IMG/VR virus record: IMGVR_UViG_2617270948_000004 | DNA from: a virus | Taxonomy: Duplodnaviria > Heunggongvirae > Uroviricota > Caudoviricetes | DNA: 17,167 bases | Strand: one strand, 5' to 3' | In this document: positions 8,685 through 15,509 of the stretch, one piece after another | Position numbering within the stretch: position 1 is the stretch's first letter | Layout of the letters: every line of letters begins with the position of its first letter | Made by a program: the position numbers and the translations under genes | The notes under the pieces: model-generated | What the model saw: the letters and a program-made list of their open reading frames with translations, nothing else | Databases searched by the model: none | Told to the model about the DNA's origin: nothing

Positions 8685-8893
8685 TGCGATACCTTGAACA
8701 TATCACCACCGACGGCGAACGCTGGGATAATCTGGCATGGCATTACTACGGTGATGCACTGGCTTACGAACGCATTATCGCCGCCAATCCACATGTCGCC
8801 ATTTATCCGGTACTGCCTTCCGGTATTCAGCTCATTATTCCAGTCATTTCCGTCAACAAAACCGTATCGGAGATCCCACCATGGCTGAGATAA
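8684..8893 (+). CDS. Tail protein X (P2 gpX-like, LysM-like fold)
   Basis: 69 aa, MRYLEHITTDGERWDNLAWHYYGD...AANPHV, parallel to P2 gpX (YYGRTEGVVETVLAANPGL) as recalled. Start overlaps the preceding stop (TAATG). Confidence 0.75.
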   Translation: MRYLEHITTDGERWDNLAWHYYGDALAYERIIAANPHVAIYPVLPSGIQLIIPVISVNKTVSEIPPWLR

Positions 8894-9921
8894 GCGTAAC
8901 TGGCGGCGTCTTTGCCACGCTCGCGCCCATTTTTACCCTCTGGTATGGGCATAAAGATATCACTTATGACATCACGCCCTATGTCACCAGTATCAGTTAT
9001 CACGACAGTATTAAAAACGAGTCGGATACCATCGCGATTACACTGGATGACACCGATGGACGCTGGATAAAAGAGTGGTATCCCGGCAAAGGCGATACGC
9101 TGGCGCTGCACATGGGTTATCAGGGGGAAAAACTGCTCGATTGTGGTCAATATATCATTGATAAAATTGATATTTCAGCACCACCTTCCACGGTAAATAT
9201 TGATGGCATCGCCACTTCCGTCAATCAGGCGCTGCGCACCCGTAATAGTCAGGGCTTTGAAGAGACAACGCTTTCAGCCATCGCCAGCCGTATCGCGCAA
9301 ACTCACGGCCTGACGCTGGTGGGCAAAATCGAGCCTCTGACAATTGACCGGGTAACACAGTACGGCGAAACCGATGTTGGATTTCTCAAACGCCTGGCCA
9401 GCGAATATGGCTATGCGGTAAAGGTGACCACCAAAGAGCTGATTTTTTCGCATTTACCCACGCTGCGCTGCCTGGCGCCGGTGAAAAAGATCGACCGCAA
9501 AGACGTTTCGCATTTCACCTTCAAAGATACCATTAACCGTATCTACAAAAACGCCACAGTACAGCATCAAAATAGTAAGAAAAAAGAACTGGTTATCTAC
9601 ACTCACGACAGCCAGCAAAAGCCGTCTGCCCGTGGAGTCTGCACCAGTGCCGACACGCTAAAACTGAACAGTCGGGTGCCGGACGTTGGCGCAGCGCAGG
9701 CAAAGGCCAACGCCGCGCTCGACAGCCACAACGAATATCAACAAACCGGAACGCTCAGGATGATGGGCTGCCCGGAACTGACGGCAGGCAATAAAATCGA
9801 GCTAACCGATTTTGGTGTGCTTTCCGGTCAGTGGCTGATTGATAAATCTACTCACAGTTTTGTGCGCAGTGGCTATACCACTGAAATCGACATTTCACGC
9901 GGGCCAGCGACCAGCCAGTAA
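8881..9921 (+). CDS. Tail/baseplate hub protein (P2 gpD-like late control protein D / Mu P-like)
   Basis: 346 aa, overlapping the gpX-like gene; size and position are typical of gpD. Confidence 0.8.
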   Translation: MAEISVTGGVFATLAPIFTLWYGHKDITYDITPYVTSISYHDSIKNESDTIAITLDDTDGRWIKEWYPGKGDTLALHMGYQGEKLLDCGQYIIDKIDISAPPSTVNIDGIATSVNQALRTRNSQGFEETTLSAIASRIAQTHGLTLVGKIEPLTIDRVTQYGETDVGFLKRLASEYGYAVKVTTKELIFSHLPTLRCLAPVKKIDRKDVSHFTFKDTINRIYKNATVQHQNSKKKELVIYTHDSQQKPSARGVCTSADTLKLNSRVPDVGAAQAKANAALDSHNEYQQTGTLRMMGCPELTAGNKIELTDFGVLSGQWLIDKSTHSFVRSGYTTEIDISRGPATSQ

Positions 9922-9930
9922 GGAGGCAAT

Positions 9931-10632
9931 ATGAAAGGAGTAACACGGCAAACGGGGATTATCAGCGATATTGACGAAACCAGCGTTCGGGTGCGGGTCA
10001 CGCTACCAGAGTGTGACAATCTGAAGAGTAACTGGCTTGCGGTGCTGCAGCGCAATTCTCAGGACAATAAAGACTACTGGCTACCGGATATGGGAGAGCA
10101 GGTGGAAGTTCTGCTGGATGATAACGGTGAAGATGGAGTAGTGCTGGGCGCAGTATATTCAACGGTAGATACCGCGCCAGTAGCATCGCGCGATAAAAGG
10201 TATGTCCAGTTTTCCGATGGCGCAGCGTTTGAATATGACCGCAGCACCCACCAGCTTACGATTAATGGCGGCATTGAAAAAATCGTGATTGAGGTTATCG
10301 ACCATACCCGCCTGACATCGCCCAACGTTGAGGTTAAAGCCCAACACGTCACCGTGACTTCCGACACTGTTGATGTGAAAGCCACCGATGTCAGCATTGA
10401 AGCCAGTAAGGTGGATGTTAAAGCGATGACTGTAACGGTAGACGCACCGCTCAGTACCTTTACCGGCAACGTCACGGTGATGAAAAAACTGACCTGGCTG
10501 GGTGGCATGGCAGGAAGTGGAGGCATCGGTAATGCCGCCACGATAACCGGCAATGTCAACGTGATTGGTAACGTGCAGGCCAGCGGCACATTGCAGGACA
10601 GCGGTGGCAACTCCAACCACCATTCACACTGA
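9931..10632 (+). CDS. Baseplate central spike protein (P2 gpV-like / Mu Q-like)
   Basis: 233 aa with strong AAGGAGG RBS. The segment QFSDGAAFEYDRSTHQLTING parallels P2 gpV RFPDGAVIEYEPETSALTVSG. Beta-helical V/T-rich repeats and a His-rich C-terminal tip (NSNHHSH), consistent with a metal-binding spike apex. Confidence 0.85.
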   Translation: MKGVTRQTGIISDIDETSVRVRVTLPECDNLKSNWLAVLQRNSQDNKDYWLPDMGEQVEVLLDDNGEDGVVLGAVYSTVDTAPVASRDKRYVQFSDGAAFEYDRSTHQLTINGGIEKIVIEVIDHTRLTSPNVEVKAQHVTVTSDTVDVKATDVSIEASKVDVKAMTVTVDAPLSTFTGNVTVMKKLTWLGGMAGSGGIGNAATITGNVNVIGNVQASGTLQDSGGNSNHHSH

Positions 10633-10637
10633 CTTTT

Positions 10638-10667
10638 AACCCGCCTGATGGCGGGGTTTCTCTTTTT
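10638..10667 (+). terminator. Rho-independent terminator-like hairpin after the spike gene
   Basis: GC-rich stem (CCCGCC / GGCGGG) with 4-nt loop TGAT, followed by the T-rich run TTTCTCTTTTT, 6 nt after the gpV stop. Confidence 0.55.
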
Positions 10668-10730
10668 AATCAACCAGTTTTCTAAACCGCTTTAATATCT
10701 CCTCCGCCTGTTCAGGGCGAAAATGCCCTC

Positions 10731-11090
10731 ATGAACACGAAAACACGCCCCTCTACGCTGCACTGGCAACCCGCCTTGCAGCGGCCTGAAGAATACGTCT
10801 GCGGACTGGATGATATTCACCAGGCAATACACATCATTCTGCGCACACCGCGCGGCAGTGATCCCCACAGACCGCTGTTTGGTAGCAACTTGTGGCACTA
10901 CATCGATTATCCCATCGAGCGGGCGATCCCGCATGTGGTACGGGAGTCTGTAGAGGCCATTCGCCAGTGGGAAGCGCGCTGCCGGTTGCTGAAGGTGACA
11001 CCGGTAATCGACGGGGAACATCTGACGTTACGTGTGCAATGGCGCGCCGCTGACGGCGTAATCAACTCAACGGAGGTGTTATGGCGATAG
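10731..11090 (+). CDS. Baseplate wedge protein (P2 gpW-like, GPW/gp25 family)
   Basis: 119 aa; the motif IHQAIHIILRTPRGSDPHRPLFGSNL parallels P2 gpW ISQSIGDILRTPVGSRVMRRDYGSLL. Confidence 0.8.
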   Translation: MNTKTRPSTLHWQPALQRPEEYVCGLDDIHQAIHIILRTPRGSDPHRPLFGSNLWHYIDYPIERAIPHVVRESVEAIRQWEARCRLLKVTPVIDGEHLTLRVQWRAADGVINSTEVLWR

Positions 11091-12196
11091 CCGAACCCAA
11101 TTTTATTGACCGCGATCCTGCGCAAATTACCAGCGAGATGATTGCGCAGTACGAAGATGCCAGCGGCAAAAAGCTCTACCCGGCACAGGCCGAGCGGTTG
11201 CTGATTGACCTTTTTGCCTATCGTGAAAACCTTGTACGCATCGCCATTCAGGAAGCGGCGAAACAGAACCTGGTCGCGTATTCCCGCGCGCCAATGCTGG
11301 ATTATTTAGGGGAACTGGTGGGCGTTCACCGCTTACCTGCGCAGCCAGCAAAAACGACGTTGCAGTTTTCGGTAGTCAATGCGTATACAAGCAACATCCT
11401 GATCCCCCAAGGAACACGAGCCAGCGCCTCTGACAGCGTGATGTTTGCTACCGATGAAGATGTTCTGATTCCGGCGGGAAGTTTGCATATCGCCGTTCCC
11501 GCCACCAGTCTGACAACAGGCGAAGCGGGCAATGGCTGGCAGCCTGCACAAATTAGCGCCCTTGTTGACAGGATTGGTTATTACGATATCAACGTAACCA
11601 ACCTGACTGCTTCAACGGGCGGCTGCGGTGAAGAGAGTGATGACGCACTGCGCCAACGGATCCAACTGGCGCCGGAAAGTTTCAGTAATGCGGGTAGCTA
11701 TGGTGCCTACCGCTTTCATACGTTTTCCGTAAGCCAGTCGATTATTGACGTTGCGGTCCTGGGGCCGGACGAAGGATTACCAGAAGGCTGCGTGGAGATC
11801 TACCCGCTAACGCTGAATGGTCTGCCGGGCGTGGAACTGCTCGCGCAAATTGAACTGGAGGTTAGTAAGGAGAAAAAACGTCCGCTGACCGACAAAGTAA
11901 GTGCGAAATGCGCCGTTAGGGTGCCGTATGAGATCCGTGCGCAGCTCACACTGTTTACCACTGCCGATCAGGAGACAACGCTGGCTGCGGCGCGTAAAGC
12001 AATTAGCCTCTGGACGCAACAGCGGCAGACACATCTGGGACAGGACATTGTGCCAAACCAGATAATCAAAGTATTGCAGGTCGATGGCGTCTATGACGTT
12101 GTGCTGAACATGCCCACAAAACGTATTTTGCGGGCGCATGAGTGGGCGGAATGCACCGCGATAGACGTCACGATTGCCGGAGTCAGCGATGGATAA
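11081..12196 (+). CDS. Baseplate protein J (P2 gpJ-like / Mu gp47-like)
   Basis: 371 aa, overlapping the gpW end; size, position and overall similarity to P2 gpJ. Confidence 0.85.
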   Translation: MAIAEPNFIDRDPAQITSEMIAQYEDASGKKLYPAQAERLLIDLFAYRENLVRIAIQEAAKQNLVAYSRAPMLDYLGELVGVHRLPAQPAKTTLQFSVVNAYTSNILIPQGTRASASDSVMFATDEDVLIPAGSLHIAVPATSLTTGEAGNGWQPAQISALVDRIGYYDINVTNLTASTGGCGEESDDALRQRIQLAPESFSNAGSYGAYRFHTFSVSQSIIDVAVLGPDEGLPEGCVEIYPLTLNGLPGVELLAQIELEVSKEKKRPLTDKVSAKCAVRVPYEIRAQLTLFTTADQETTLAAARKAISLWTQQRQTHLGQDIVPNQIIKVLQVDGVYDVVLNMPTKRILRAHEWAECTAIDVTIAGVSDG

Positions 12197-12905
12197 ATTG
12201 CTGCCGCCACCACCGCTTGCCAGCGATGAGCGTTTTTCAACTCTGGCAAATATCGCCGCCGAGCGTTTTGCCCAACTCGATCTGACGGCGTTGATGGTTT
12301 ATCTGGTAGACCTGGTTGATGCTTCGGCATTACCTGCCCTTGCAGAACAATTTCACGTTCAGGGGCTGGAAGGTTGGTTATTTACCACTGATGAACGGGA
12401 GAAGCGAGAGTTAATTAAGCAAGCCATTGAGCTGCATAAATATAAAGGAACGATTTGGGCGGTACGGCGGGTACTGGAAATACTTTCTCTACCAGGAACT
12501 ATTTCAGAATGGTTTGAATATGAGGGGAAGGCTTATTTTTTTAAGGTTGATATTACACTAGAGGAAAAAGGATTAAATGAAGATGATTTTAATGCACTTA
12601 TCGCATTAATTCACGAATATAAAAATGTTCGTTCAAAACTTGAAAGCATTACCATCTGGCTTATTAACCAAAGTCAAATACCGGTTATTGGCAGCGCAAT
12701 CCAGGGCGGGGAGGTTATTACTGTATTACCCCCTATTGCGGAAAGTATTTGCCAGTCATCGACACTATTTTTAGCGACAGGTTACTGTGTTGAGGAATAC
12801 ATAAATCTCTTTCCGTATCAACCTGATCGCATTACACAATCCCAACCGATTCATGTCGGCACAGGATACTGGAGTACCGAAATTATGTCTGTATACCCGG
12901 AGTAA
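12189..12905 (+). CDS. Tail protein I (P2 gpI-like)
   Basis: ATG at 12189 overlaps the gpJ stop (the track start at 12174 is TTG). The motif HKYKGTIWAVRRVLEIL parallels P2 gpI HCHKGTIGAIRRVVEPL. The C-terminal half is markedly AT-rich. Confidence 0.8.
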   Translation: MDKLLPPPPLASDERFSTLANIAAERFAQLDLTALMVYLVDLVDASALPALAEQFHVQGLEGWLFTTDEREKRELIKQAIELHKYKGTIWAVRRVLEILSLPGTISEWFEYEGKAYFFKVDITLEEKGLNEDDFNALIALIHEYKNVRSKLESITIWLINQSQIPVIGSAIQGGEVITVLPPIAESICQSSTLFLATGYCVEEYINLFPYQPDRITQSQPIHVGTGYWSTEIMSVYPE

Positions 12906-12907
12906 AT

Positions 12908-14404
12908 ATGGCAAGTGAATTTTTTACAATATTAACCAGCGCAGGCAAATCAAAAATTGCCTCTGCGCTGGCGGAGCAAAAACAGATCCGCCTACAAACG
13001 ATGGTAGTCGGCGATGGCAATGGTCATTATGTCGAGCCGACAGAAAGTCAGACCAAAGTTGTGCATGAAGTCTGGCGTGGGCAACTAAATACCTTAAAGA
13101 TTGCGCCTGATAATCCAGCCTGGGTTATCGCAGAGACTATTATTCCTGAACAAGTAGGTGGCTGGTACGTCCGCGAGGTTGGGCTACTGGATGCTGACGG
13201 CACGCTAGTAGCTATTGGCAAATTTCCGGAAACCTATAAACCGCTATTACCTACAGGCGCCAGTAAGCAAATTGTTATTCGCGCGGTTATGGAAGTGACC
13301 AATGCTGACGCGGTGACGCTTTTGATCGACCCTTCAGTCGTTATGGCAACCAGGGAGTATGTCGATGACGCGCTGAAAACACATCAGCAATCACGAAATC
13401 ATCCTGATGCGACGCTGACACAAAAAGGTTTTACACAGCTGAGCAATGCGACTAATAGCGATGATGAGACTAAAGCAGCCACGCCAAAAGCGGTAAAAAC
13501 GGCATATGACCTGGCAAATAGTAAAGCCGCCACTAGTCATGCTCATGCCTGGAATCAGATTACTGGTATCCCTGACGGTACGCTGACGCAGAAAGGGATC
13601 GTTAAACTTAACAACACGACAAATAGCGCCAGTACGACGGAAGCTGCAACGCCAAGTGCGGTTAAGGCAGTGTATGACCTGGCAAATAGTAAAGCCGCCA
13701 CTAGTCATATTCATGCCTGGAATCAGATTACCGGTATCCCTGATGGTACGCTGACGCAGAAAGGAGTCGTTAAACTTAACAACACGACAAATAGCACCAG
13801 TTCGACGGAAGCTGCAACACCAAGTGCGGTTAAGGCGGTGTATGACCTTGCTAATGGCAAGGCTTCGGCAAGTCATACGCACGCATGGGAGCAGATTACC
13901 AACATTCCCGACGCAACTCTTGGTAAGAAAGGAATTGTTCAGCTAAGCAGTATCGTCCCTAGTACCAGTACAACAGAAGCAGCAACGCCATACTCAGTTA
14001 AGGTTGCCTATGACCTTGCGAACACTAAAGCTCCGGCAAGCCATGCTCATCCATGGAATCAAATTACTGGTATCCCAGACGGTACGCTGACGCAAAAAGG
14101 GATTGTGAAGCTTAATAACACAACAAACAGCACCAGTACGACAGAGGCAGCGACACCCAGTGCGGTGAAGGCAGCAATGGACAAAGCAAATACAGCGTTG
14201 AATAACACCACTGCATCTATATCAGATGTCAGACTAGGTGCTAAATTTGATCAGGTTATGGCAAAAGGGGGGCGCTATGAATTCTCTGGTAATGTTCTGA
14301 CTGGGTTGAGAATTATCGGAGAAGTAGATGGAGATGATCTCGCTATATTTCGCCCACTTCAGATAAAGGTTAGAAATTCTTGGTATACGGTAGGGCAACT
14401 TTAA
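12908..14404 (+). CDS. Tail fiber protein (P2 gpH-like N- and C-termini with expanded internal repeats)
   Basis: 498 aa with GGAG RBS. The N-terminus (VGDGNGHYVEP...HEVWRGQLN...VGGWYVREVGLLDADGTLVAIGKFPETYKP) and C-terminus (VRLGAKFDQVMAKGGRYEFSGNVLTGLRIIGEVDGDDLAIFRPLQ) closely parallel P2 gpH as recalled; the middle is a repeat array. Confidence 0.85.
   Translation: MASEFFTILTSAGKSKIASALAEQKQIRLQTMVVGDGNGHYVEPTESQTKVVHEVWRGQLNTLKIAPDNPAWVIAETIIPEQVGGWYVREVGLLDADGTLVAIGKFPETYKPLLPTGASKQIVIRAVMEVTNADAVTLLIDPSVVMATREYVDDALKTHQQSRNHPDATLTQKGFTQLSNATNSDDETKAATPKAVKTAYDLANSKAATSHAHAWNQITGIPDGTLTQKGIVKLNNTTNSASTTEAATPSAVKAVYDLANSKAATSHIHAWNQITGIPDGTLTQKGVVKLNNTTNSTSSTEAATPSAVKAVYDLANGKASASHTHAWEQITNIPDATLGKKGIVQLSSIVPSTSTTEAATPYSVKVAYDLANTKAPASHAHPWNQITGIPDGTLTQKGIVKLNNTTNSTSTTEAATPSAVKAAMDKANTALNNTTASISDVRLGAKFDQVMAKGGRYEFSGNVLTGLRIIGEVDGDDLAIFRPLQIKVRNSWYTVGQL
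13406..14210 (+). repeat. In-frame tandem repeat array, about 4.8 copies of a 168-bp (56-aa) unit, inside the tail fiber gene
   Basis: Units begin at 13406, 13574, 13742, 13910 and 14078 (partial). Each encodes D(A/G)TLTQKG-V-LNNTTNS-S-TEAATPSAVKAVYDLANSKAATSH-H-WNQITGIP. Copies 2 and 3 are nearly identical at the nucleotide level; other copies differ mainly at synonymous positions. Confidence 0.9.
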
Positions 14405-15057
14405 TGGGATATAAAAATTTTACACTCTATAAACCAACAGAAAGTATTGGTGGTATTTTTTATCTAAAATCTGATGACGATGTTGATTGGTACGAGGCAC
14501 AAAAAAACTTTTCTACCGAAACGTTAAAAATTGCTTATGACAGCACAGGTAGAATTTGCATTGCGGATACTGATGCCTCAGCGATTTGGCCAATAAATTT
14601 ATCTATCAGTGAGATCTCATCTGAGAATGTTCCTGATGATTTTTCAACAAATGGGAAATGGCTCTGGAATGGCGAAAGTATAATCAGCTCTGTAACAATC
14701 GTAACCGCTAAAAAAAATAAAGTAGAGGATATCAAAAATCAACGCGATACCATCACAACCAACTACATCATCATCAACGACCATCACTTCCACAGTGATA
14801 CAAATAGCCGTATCCAACAGCTTTCACTCACTAAAATGGGAGCGGAGAAAAAAATTCCGCCAGGTTTAATGTGGAAAACTAAAAATGACGGTCTGATCGA
14901 GTTAACCAACGAAATCGCCGCCCAGTTTGAATCGGTAACAATGGATCACGATATGCGCTTATTGGCCAACGCCCAGCACCATATCGCGGCGGTGGAAGCA
15001 CTGGACGATATTCAGGCAGTGCTCGACTACGATTACTCCACAGGCTGGCAACCATGA
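14404..15057 (+). CDS. Tail fiber assembly protein (P2 gpG / Tfa-like)
   Basis: ATG at 14404 overlaps the fiber stop (TAATG). The N-terminal region DWYEAQKNFSTETLKIAYDSTGRICIADTDAS parallels P2 gpG [32 protein letters not shown]. AT-rich. Confidence 0.75.
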   Translation: MGYKNFTLYKPTESIGGIFYLKSDDDVDWYEAQKNFSTETLKIAYDSTGRICIADTDASAIWPINLSISEISSENVPDDFSTNGKWLWNGESIISSVTIVTAKKNKVEDIKNQRDTITTNYIIINDHHFHSDTNSRIQQLSLTKMGAEKKIPPGLMWKTKNDGLIELTNEIAAQFESVTMDHDMRLLANAQHHIAAVEALDDIQAVLDYDYSTGWQP

Positions 15058-15509
15058 GTAAAACCACTGTCTGGCTCGCTTGTTATAAGGGCCGAACAGA
15101 GCACCGTGGTGTTGCCCGACTGGCTGACTGGCTTACCCGTAAAGTGACACGTGGTAGTTATTCCCACTGTGAATTAGCCGTTAAGCATGGTGAAAAGAGT
15201 TACCTTTGTTACTCTGCATCACTACGCGATCGCGGCGTTCGGGGAAAGATAATGCCTTTACCGCCAGATAAGTGGGATATGCTGCCGCTCCAGGCCTGCC
15301 TTCAGGACGTGGAAACGTTTTTCCATAAACATGATGGCAAAAAATACGACTGGCGCGGAGCCTTAGGAATTATCACCGGCAATAAAGAACAGTGCGATCG
15401 CCTGTTTTGCAGTGAATTTTGTGCTGAATTCCTGCAATTAAAAGACAGCTGGCGATACTCACCAAATCACCTGTATGCCTTAGTAAGTAGCTGGCAATCC
15501 CATCCGTAA
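15054..15509 (+). CDS. Hypothetical Cys/His-containing protein; possible permuted papain-fold (NlpC/P60-like) hydrolase
   Basis: 151-aa ORF translationally coupled to the fiber assembly gene (ATGA overlap). Contains a His motif (SYSHCELAV) N-terminal to a Cys motif (LFCSEFCAEF), the order expected for circularly permuted papain-like enzymes. The function is inferred from motif order only. Confidence 0.45.
   Translation: MSKTTVWLACYKGRTEHRGVARLADWLTRKVTRGSYSHCELAVKHGEKSYLCYSASLRDRGVRGKIMPLPPDKWDMLPLQACLQDVETFFHKHDGKKYDWRGALGIITGNKEQCDRLFCSEFCAEFLQLKDSWRYSPNHLYALVSSWQSHP

What the first reader, a model, noticed from the sequence alone, without database searches (positions are those of the whole stretch)
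13406..14210. Expanded 56-aa tandem repeats with a conserved S-H-x-H-x-W motif inside the tail fiber
The fiber has P2 gpH-like N- and C-termini but an internal array of about 4.8 copies of a 168-bp unit, versus about two copies of a similar unit in P2 gpH as recalled. Each unit carries an H-x-H motif (SHAHAW, SHIHAW, SHTHAW, SHAHPW). In trimeric phage fibers and spikes, stacked HxH motifs coordinate metal ions (as in the T4 gp37 tip and P2 gpV apex), so this may be a metal-stabilised shaft of tunable length. Copies 2 and 3 are nearly identical in nucleotide sequence, indicating recent duplication and a substrate for repeat-number variation affecting fiber length or host range.
Basis: partly seen in the sequence, partly recalled or inferred. 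Interest (0 to 1): 0.5.

Follow-up and report, generated by a model that had tools for sequence, protein, structure and literature searches.

The report
Histidine-studded repeat shaft of tail fibre
The middle of this P2-like tail-fibre gene is a real tandem array of 56-residue units, each joined by a conserved His-x-His-x-Trp linker, and related strains carry two to five units; this is a common, already catalogued fibre building block, and metal binding is plausible but untested.

Summary
The 498-aa fibre ORF (12908-14404) has a 168-nt / 56-aa tandem array (about 13400-14203, 4.8 units). It consists of five Pfam Phage_fiber_2 (PF03406) repeats. The four junctions between them each carry S-H-x-H-x-W-x-Q-I-T.

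The N- and C-termini are P2 gpH-like. P2 gpH has two 44-aa repeats and no HxH, so the 56-aa unit is the P2 unit plus a 12-aa HxH insert. Copy number does vary. Alleles with the same termini have 2, 3, 4 or 5 HxH junctions, and three of them differ from this gene by one clean whole-unit gap at three different places.

The units are under strong purifying selection (dN/dS 0.04 at dS 1.3). HxHxW is present in 354 of 354 junctions of 56-aa spacing in homologues.

Metal coordination on the trimer axis could not be tested. Only a monomer model was possible, and its repeat region was low confidence. No solved structure matches the junction by sequence.

The unit is widespread: thousands of proteins and at least 120 viral contigs carry it. 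It is partly covered by Pfam PTR (PF12789).

The gene sits in a headless Mu-like tail cluster. In this copy the sheath gene carries a nonsense mutation.

The finding is ordinary, a new member of a known kind.

The parts
12908..14404 (+). Tail-fibre gene, 498 aa (stop codon at 14402-14404)
   Evidence: ORF list. Pfam PF12571 plus five PF03406 repeats. The identical protein is named 'tail fiber protein [Escherichia]' and lies on 24 contigs.
12908..13354 (+). N-terminal baseplate-attachment domain (aa 1-149), P2 gpH type
   Evidence: PF12571 at E 3.3e-59. 49% identity to P2 gpH over aa 24-263. This is the only part of the AlphaFold model with confidence.
13400..14203 (+). Tandem array of 4.8 units of 168 nt (56 aa). 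It holds five PF03406 repeats: aa 165-206, 223-262, 279-318, 335-374 and 391-432.
13526..13573 (+). Junction 1, AATSHAHAWNQITGIP (aa 207-222), with HxH at 211/213
   Evidence: BLASTP against P2 gpH shows a 12-aa gap exactly here.
13694..13741 (+). Junction 2, AATSHIHAWNQITGIP (aa 263-278)
13862..13909 (+). Junction 3, SASHTHAWEQITNIP (aa 319-334). Pfam PTR (PF12789) aligns here below its cut-off.
14030..14077 (+). Junction 4, PASHAHPWNQITGIP (aa 375-390)
13505..13540 (+). 36-nt exact direct repeat, whose second copy is at 13673-13708. It is the breakpoint of the one-unit deletion allele.
   Evidence: Locus L006 equals this gene minus 168 nt, with the junction inside this stretch.
14204..14401 (+). 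C-terminal tip (aa 433-498), P2 gpH / Mu gpS type
   Evidence: 48% identity to P2 gpH aa 580-669. It matches Mu tail fibre S (5yvq) aa 435-502. It is identical at nucleotide level in alleles L007 and L008.
14404..15057 (+). Tail-fibre assembly chaperone gene (217 aa as called in related contigs)
   Evidence: PF14301 (DUF4376) and PF02413 (Caudo_TAP). Gene calls in L002-L005.

Best explanation
The region encodes the shaft of a homotrimeric tail fibre of the P2 gpH / Mu gpS type. The fibre belongs to a headless, Mor-activated contractile-tail cluster in the Escherichia chromosome.

The shaft is built almost entirely from five Phage_fiber_2 (PF03406) repeats. Each of the four junctions between repeats carries a 12-residue insert relative to the P2 gpH junction. 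The insert has the invariant pattern H-x-H-x-W-x-Q-I-T-x-x-P, which gives the 56-aa period.

Shown here:
- The array is real.
- The protein sequence of the units is held by strong purifying selection.
- The His-x-His-x-Trp pattern is invariant.
- Unit number changes by whole-unit, in-frame recombination between repeats. This gives alleles with 2 to 5 junctions between identical attachment and tip domains.

Inferred:
- In the trimer, the three HxH pairs of each junction meet on the three-fold axis. They would form an octahedral six-histidine site for Fe(II) or another divalent ion, as in T4 gp37, the R1/R2 pyocin fibre shafts and P2 gpV.
- Such sites would register the three chains during folding and stiffen the shaft.
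- Adding or removing a unit would change the reach of the fibre without touching the receptor-binding tip.
For: - Repeat anatomy.
- Domain identity: PF03406, five stretches, E 1e-83. PF12571 at the N-terminus. P2 gpH and Mu S type C-terminus. A chaperone gene lies downstream, and gpJ and gpI genes lie upstream.
- The junction is a discrete module. In 120 homologues, 354 of 354 intervals of 56 aa carry HxHxW, and 56 of 56 intervals of 44 aa carry none. BLASTP against P2 gpH shows a clean 12-aa gap at the junction.
- Selection: units U1 and U4 have dN 0.049 and dS 1.33, ratio 0.036, with 21 synonymous against 6 non-synonymous codon differences.
- Copy-number change: proteins of 386, 442, 498 and 554 aa share the same ends.
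- Single-gap alignments of three alleles to this gene:
  - L007: a 336-nt gap at about 13412-13420, otherwise 97.7% identical. It comes from a complete genome.
  - L008: a 168-nt gap at about 13814-13819, otherwise 96.5% identical. It lies on 15 contigs, one of them long-read polished.
  - L006: a 168-nt gap inside a 36-nt exact repeat, otherwise 100% identical.
- Precedent for HxH sites that bind Fe on the axis of trimeric fibres and spikes: PMC6116203, PMC8174754, PMC12609058.
- Sister alleles of the same cluster end in classic T4 gp37-like GSHxHSxxL repeats.
Against: - There is no structural or chemical evidence for metal binding in this unit.
- The AlphaFold monomer model is below pLDDT 50 across the repeats.
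- The junction has no detectable sequence similarity to any solved structure, including the known Fe-binding fibres.
- Isolated P2-like phages build the same kind of shaft with 44-aa units and no histidines. The HxH insert is therefore not needed for a PF03406 shaft to fold.
- In this copy the sheath gene has a TGG-to-TGA stop, so the fibre is probably not in use in this strain.
- The one-unit deletion allele L006 is known only from a k-mer graph assembly and could be a collapse.
- No data link unit number to fibre length or target range.
Confidence: 0.6

Rival explanations
1. The histidines are structural but do not bind metal. The alternating H, H and W side chains pack into the trimer core or form hydrogen-bond and stacking ladders, or act as pH-sensitive switches. 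No ion is bound.
For: - The invariant i, i+2, i+4 pattern (H, H, W) with variable residues in between fits an inward-facing strand, with or without metal.
- The junction shows no sequence similarity to proven Fe-binding segments.
- A related 53-aa period variant has HSH but no Trp, so the local packing differs between variants.
Against: In every solved trimeric fibre or spike discussed in PMC6116203, a conserved HxH forms a six-His metal site. The strict invariance of both His across units whose synonymous sites are saturated is what a ligand role predicts.
Confidence: 0.2
2. The repeats are not just a spacer. The unit surfaces bind a repetitive surface glycan (O-antigen or capsule) along the shaft, and copy number sets avidity rather than length.
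For: - The fibre has only about 65 residues beyond the repeats, a very small tip for a receptor-binding domain.
- One unit (13841-14008) is markedly divergent at exposed positions and is conserved as such in several alleles.
Against: - Most units are nearly identical in protein sequence across Escherichia and Salmonella fibres that carry quite different tips. That is not the pattern of a specificity determinant.
- The homologous C-terminal segment of Mu gpS and P2 gpH is the part tied to receptor binding and chaperone docking in published work (PMC11915804).
Confidence: 0.1
3. Copy-number differences are neutral slippage and recombination noise in a decaying cryptic element, or partly assembly artefacts, with no adaptive tuning.
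For: - The sheath gene carries a nonsense mutation here. The tape-measure gene is a pseudogene in strain CE10. The tape-measure and gpD genes are split in L002.
- The 442-aa alleles P0002 and P0004 occur only in Logan graph assemblies.
Against: - All indels are whole units and in frame.
- The units show dN/dS of 0.04, and the N-terminal domain 0.05-0.15.
- The same exact fibre occurs with an intact sheath gene (L004).
- The 386-aa and 442-aa alleles occur in a complete genome and in 15 contigs.
- The same unit varies from 1 to 8 copies in viral contigs.
- This rival concerns adaptive value only. It does not dispute that the variation exists.
Confidence: 0.3

Closest known systems
Bacteriophage P2 tail fibre gpH (NP_046775)
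   Same: - The N-terminal attachment domain is 49% identical over aa 24-263.
- It has PF03406 repeats.
- The last ~60 residues are 48% identical.
- A chaperone gene follows, and gpJ and gpI genes precede.
   Different: - P2 gpH has two repeats 44 aa apart, joined by GKYTAQDAT, and no HxH.
- It has about 330 further residues between the repeats and the tip that are absent here.
- Here there are five repeats with four 12-aa HxHxW inserts.
Phage Mu tail fibre S (gp49; PDB 5YVQ, 9KI1)
   Same: - One PF03406 repeat (aa 108-150) matches the unit profile at E 6e-14.
- The C-terminal tip is related.
- The surrounding tail gene order (sheath, tube, tape measure, baseplate, fibre) and the Mor activator are Mu-like.
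   Different: - Mu S has a single repeat and no HxH junction.
- Its N-terminal domain is different.
- Only the two ends of the Mu fibre have been modelled (PMC11915804).
R1/R2 pyocin fibres (PA0620) and the T4 gp37 needle: HxH iron sites
   Same: These are trimeric fibres of contractile tails or tailocins in which a conserved HxH from each chain forms a buried six-His Fe site. The authors propose that this site aids folding register and stiffness (PMC6116203). Sister alleles of this fibre end in gp37-like GSHxHSxxL repeats.
   Different: - There is no detectable sequence similarity between those segments and this junction.
- Here the HxH is embedded between PF03406 repeats at a fixed 56-aa period.
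- Metal binding is not shown.
Pfam PTR 'Phage tail repeat like' (PF12789)
   Same: Profile positions 22-46 align on the HxH junction. Related fibres P0068 and P0215 pass the family cut-off.
   Different: The window protein scores 20 bits against a cut-off of 27.

Membership tests
P2 gpH / Mu gpS-type tail fibre | N-terminal tail-collar fibre domain (PF12571) | tested here: met
   E 3.3e-59, 199.6 bits, aa 1-149.
P2 gpH / Mu gpS-type tail fibre | Phage_fiber_2 repeats (PF03406) | tested here: met
   Five stretches, E 1e-83, 275 bits.
P2 gpH / Mu gpS-type tail fibre | C-terminal tip homologous to the gpH / S tip | tested here: met
   48% identity to P2 gpH aa 580-669. Second hit stretch to Mu S aa 435-502.
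P2 gpH / Mu gpS-type tail fibre | Gene position: after the baseplate gpJ and gpI genes, followed by a tail-fibre assembly chaperone gene | tested here: met
   PF04865 and PF09684 upstream. PF14301 plus PF02413 (22.6 bits against a cut-off of 22.1) downstream.
P2 gpH / Mu gpS-type tail fibre | Homotrimer | not testable with these tools
   Only monomer prediction is offered.
HxH metal-binding fibre/spike segments (T4 gp37 needle, R1/R2 pyocin shaft, P2 gpV apex) | Conserved H-x-H motif | tested here: met
   Four of four junctions here. 354 of 354 junctions of 56-aa spacing in homologues.
HxH metal-binding fibre/spike segments (T4 gp37 needle, R1/R2 pyocin shaft, P2 gpV apex) | Six His from three chains around an ion on the three-fold axis | not testable with these tools
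   The monomer model has pLDDT below 50 in the repeats.
HxH metal-binding fibre/spike segments (T4 gp37 needle, R1/R2 pyocin shaft, P2 gpV apex) | Sequence homology to a solved Fe-binding segment | tested here: not met
   Profile and peptide searches of all PDB sequences find only the PF03406 part of Mu S.
Pfam PTR (PF12789) | Score above the gathering cut-off (27 bits) | tested here: not met
   20 bits for the window protein. Relatives P0068 (42.7 bits) and P0215 (44.4 bits) pass, with the match on the HxH junction.
R-type tailocin (headless contractile tail cluster) | Lysis and regulatory genes plus a full contractile tail module, with no head or DNA-packaging genes, at a fixed chromosomal site | tested here: met
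   Mor activator, holin, SLT lytic transglycosylase, then sheath through fibre and chaperone. The locus is bounded by lysC and by yjbD/rluF in CE10 and L002-L005, with no head genes.
R-type tailocin (headless contractile tail cluster) | Intact genes and killing activity | tested here: not met
   The sheath gene has a TGG-to-TGA stop at 3348-3350 in this copy. It is intact in L004. Killing activity is not testable.

The most novel reading that the evidence does not exclude
The 56-aa unit is a self-contained, metal-clamped spacer module. Each junction would bind one Fe(II) per trimer, which makes 4 per fibre and 24 per particle here. Unequal recombination would add or remove modules as a molecular ruler, matching fibre reach to the thickness of the target's O-antigen or capsule layer while the tip stays constant. 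No published description of the PF03406-plus-HxHxW composite unit, or of its structure, was found in the searches made here.
Probability: 0.2. Interest if true: 0.45.

Novelty: new member of a known kind. Interest (0 to 1): 0.25.

Why it matters
If the junctions do bind metal, this is a compact, sequence-defined and naturally length-variable shaft module. It could be used to engineer phage or tailocin fibres of set length. It would also add a fourth structural context for six-His iron sites in tail fibres.

As it stands, the result mainly documents a clean natural allelic series of 2, 3, 4 and 5 units between identical ends. That series would make a convenient test set. The biology is otherwise what specialists would expect of a Phage_fiber_2 fibre.

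Tried and rejected
1. Trimer geometry.

2. Monomer model. The AlphaFold2 monomer run with a 52-sequence alignment gave mean pLDDT 47 and below 50 across all repeats. It cannot place the histidines. Foldseek against the PDB found only the N-terminal domain, in the Haloferax virus HFTV1 tail (9h4p, E 1e-6).

3. Solved relatives of the junction. Three sequence searches of the PDB were run: the whole protein, a 15-unit profile and a 31-aa junction peptide. They found only Mu fibre S, which matches the PF03406 part and the tip.

4. Nucleotide search of the phage collection gave no match. NCBIfam gave no family for the fibre or its neighbours.

5. Literature. Searches for PF03406 / Phage_fiber_2 found only listings and a repeat-modelling paper with no usable structure. 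Searches for an E. coli tailocin at lysC found nothing on this locus. The ST131 'tailocin' paper describes a different, P2-like prophage.

6. The minus-strand ORF 13391-13882 (163 aa) inside the array was set aside as a by-product of the repeat. The plus-strand frame has dN/dS well below 1. It was not tested further.

7. L006 as proof of a very recent deletion was downgraded. It is known only from a k=31 graph assembly, and the breakpoint lies in a 36-nt exact repeat.

Full report
WHAT IS THERE

The ORF 12908-14404 (+) encodes a 498-aa protein. Tandem Repeats Finder reports a 168-nt period at 13505-14174, with 4.0 copies, 75% matches and score 685. The repeat finder gives four in-register 216-nt copies spaced 168 nt apart. 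Base identity at lag 168 is 0.686, against 0.258 +/- 0.043 for other lags.

In protein terms the array runs from aa 165 to 432 (nt 13400-14203), which is 4.8 units of 56 aa. H-x-H occurs at aa 211, 267, 323 and 379, in the motifs SHAHAW, SHIHAW, SHTHAW and SHAHPW.

In the best register (units starting at YDLAN, nt 13505) the identities are as follows:
- Units 1 and 2 are 94.0% identical and share a 36-nt exact stretch.
- Units 1 and 4 are 81.5% identical.
- Unit 3 is about 64% identical to the others.

WHAT IT IS

Pfam finds the P2-type N-terminal fibre domain PF12571 (E 3e-59, aa 1-149). It also finds five Phage_fiber_2 repeats (PF03406, E 1e-83).

The C-terminal ~65 residues resemble the tips of Mu fibre S (5yvq) and P2 gpH, with 48% identity to the end of gpH.

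The neighbouring genes fit a fibre gene. Baseplate genes gpJ and gpI lie upstream. A fibre-assembly chaperone gene (DUF4376 / Caudo_TAP) lies downstream.

BLASTP against P2 gpH shows what the 56-aa unit is. The P2 repeats are joined by GKYTAQ-DATT. Here the same position reads SKAATSHAHAWNQITGIPDGT, and the alignment opens a clean 12-residue gap in gpH.

P2, Wphi and Yersinia phage P37 each have two repeat cores 44 aa apart and no HxH. Phage 12474III has four such cores.

So the fibre is an attachment domain, then five PF03406 repeats with four HxH-bearing junctions, then a short gpH/S-type tip. The roughly 330 residues that P2 gpH has between its repeats and its tip are absent.

THE JUNCTION IS A DISCRETE, CONSERVED MODULE

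I located the PF03406 core (AATPxAVK) in 120 homologues without reference to histidines:
- All 354 inter-core intervals of 56 aa contain HxHxW.
- All 56 intervals of 44 aa contain none.

Across 139 distinct units chosen for carrying the H-x-H-x-W core, Q, I, T and P after the core are near-invariant. The residues between the two histidines and between the second histidine and W vary (T/R/I/A/K/N and P/A/T). That pattern is expected if alternate side chains face the core.

Selection is strong. Units 1 and 4 differ at 21 synonymous but only 6 non-synonymous codons (dN 0.049, dS 1.33, ratio 0.036). The recently homogenised pair, units 1 and 2, has dS 0.14. The N-terminal domain has a ratio of 0.05-0.15 against orthologues.

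COPY NUMBER VARIES

The identical protein is in public databases as 'tail fiber protein [Escherichia]' on 24 contigs. Homologues with the same N-terminal domain and the same tip have four lengths:

| Length | HxH junctions | Seen in |
|---|---|---|
| 386 aa | 2 | E. coli |
| 442 aa | 3 | E. ruysiae and others |
| 498 aa | 4 | this gene; E. fergusonii |
| 554 aa | 5 | E. albertii |

At DNA level each of three alleles aligns to the window gene with one whole-unit gap:
- L007: a 336-nt gap at about 13412-13420, 97.7% identical otherwise. It comes from a complete genome.
- L008: a 168-nt gap at about 13814-13819, 96.5% identical otherwise. It lies on 15 contigs, including a long-read polished one.
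- L006: a 168-nt gap within the 36-nt exact repeat 13505-13540 / 13673-13708. The gene is otherwise 100% identical, and the flanks are 99.8% identical.

L006 is known only from a k-mer graph assembly, so it may be a collapse. The other two alleles are independent of it. Three different breakpoints show that recombination between units is recurrent.

HOW COMMON IT IS

A profile of the unit hits 6717 clusters (at 50% identity) among 1.84 billion representative proteins at E <= 1e-3. In the top 150, PF03406 arrays occur with several periods:
- 39, 44 and 45 aa, without HxH.
- 53 aa, mostly with KANxSHSHxxxDLP (HxH but no Trp).
- 56 aa, with HxHxW in 57 of 58 intervals.
- 58-80 aa, almost all without HxH.

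These carry 1 to 8 junctions per ORF (14 in one ORF that lacks PF03406), and 56-aa spacing dominates.

Pfam's PTR family (PF12789) aligns on the junction. It passes its cut-off in relatives P0068 and P0215 and falls below it here, at 20 bits against 27.

The unit is therefore a common, partly catalogued building block. I found no paper that describes this composite unit or its structure.

DOES IT BIND METAL?

Published structures show that conserved HxH motifs in trimeric fibres and spikes form buried six-His octahedral Fe sites. Examples are the T4 gp37 needle, the R1/R2 pyocin fibre shaft and the P2 gpV apex. T4 gp12 holds Zn at the equivalent site. The authors suggest these sites act as folding reference points and tune stiffness (PMC6116203).

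Sister alleles of this very fibre end in gp37-like GSHxHSxxL repeats.

By analogy the four junctions here most likely form four axial metal sites per trimer. I could not test this, for three reasons:
- The monomer model has pLDDT below 50 throughout the repeats.
- No solved chain resembles the junction by sequence.

P2-type phages make PF03406 shafts without any histidine. The insert is thus an optional reinforcement or register device, not a requirement.

CONTEXT

The window is a headless Mu/BcepMu-like tail cluster. Its genes, in order, are:
- Mor activator (1-348, minus strand), holin, SLT lytic transglycosylase and Gp37;
- sheath, tube, tail assembly chaperone and tape measure;
- gpU, X, gpD, V, W, J and I;
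- fibre, chaperone and a 151-aa ORF of unknown function.

In E. coli CE10 and in the contigs that carry the identical fibre, the cluster lies between lysC and yjbD/rluF. No head genes are present. It therefore looks like an R-type tailocin or a tail-only prophage remnant. 196 of 5426 complete E. coli genomes match the gpI-to-151-aa-ORF segment of the cluster at 80-90% identity.

In this window the sheath gene has a TGG-to-TGA nonsense codon at 3348-3350. The codon is intact in L004, which has the same fibre. In this strain the fibre is probably idle.

VERDICT

The domain assignment, the motif conservation and the copy-number variation are shown. Metal binding and functional length tuning are reasonable inferences from known fibres and remain untested.

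For a specialist this is an ordinary Phage_fiber_2 fibre with a familiar HxH theme. Its most useful aspect is the clean natural 2-to-5-unit allelic series.

Noticed in passing
window 2865-4289 (stop at 3348-3350): The tail sheath gene is interrupted by a single in-frame TGA where a related contig (L004) has TGG (Trp). The same stop is in L002, L003 and L005. The rest aligns over 474 aa at 94% identity to the CE10 sheath protein. This copy of the tail cluster is probably non-functional.
   Followed up: yes
window 1-15509; L001 (E. coli CE10) 2892-20471: The whole window is a headless contractile-tail cluster. It has a Mor activator, holin, SLT lysin, sheath, tube, tape measure, baseplate, fibre and chaperone, and no capsid or packaging genes. 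It sits between lysC and yjbD/rluF in Escherichia chromosomes, so it is tailocin-like. I found no paper on this locus. 196 of 5426 complete E. coli genomes match its gpI-to-151-aa-ORF segment at 80-90% identity.
   Followed up: partly
L001 10183-12558; L002 2466-4825 and 5975-7014: Other copies of the cluster carry different inactivating lesions. In CE10 the tape-measure gene has an internal stop. In L002 the tape-measure and gpD genes are split. This suggests repeated independent decay of the element.
   Followed up: no
window 16016-17167; L001 20486-22410; L007 5280-6071: The slot just downstream of the tail cluster holds different cargo in different strains. Here it is a family-4 glycosyltransferase that also matches Pfam 'GT4-conflict'. 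In CE10 it is a nucleotidyltransferase plus a slipin-family protein. In L007 it is an RlaP-family protein.
   Followed up: no
window 14201-14404 versus L007 and L008: The last 68 codons of the fibre are identical at nucleotide level in alleles whose flanking genes are 4-5% diverged. This points to recent exchange or conversion of the tip.
   Followed up: partly
proteins P0059, P0019 and P0057 (same cluster in other Escherichia): Sister alleles keep the same N-terminus and 2-3 HxHxW junctions. They end in a Collar domain followed by 9-aa GSHxHSxxL repeats, of the kind that bind iron in the T4 gp37 needle.
   Followed up: partly
window 15054-15509: A conserved 151-aa ORF follows the chaperone gene in every copy of the cluster. 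It has no Pfam or NCBIfam match and only an oddly named PHROG (phrog_1128). Its function is unknown.
   Followed up: partly
L041 and L028 (IMG/VR contigs): The HxHxWxQI motif also forms arrays of its own, with 19- and 35-aa spacing and no PF03406 repeats (14 and 8 copies in one ORF). The histidine junction is therefore an independent repeat module.
   Followed up: no
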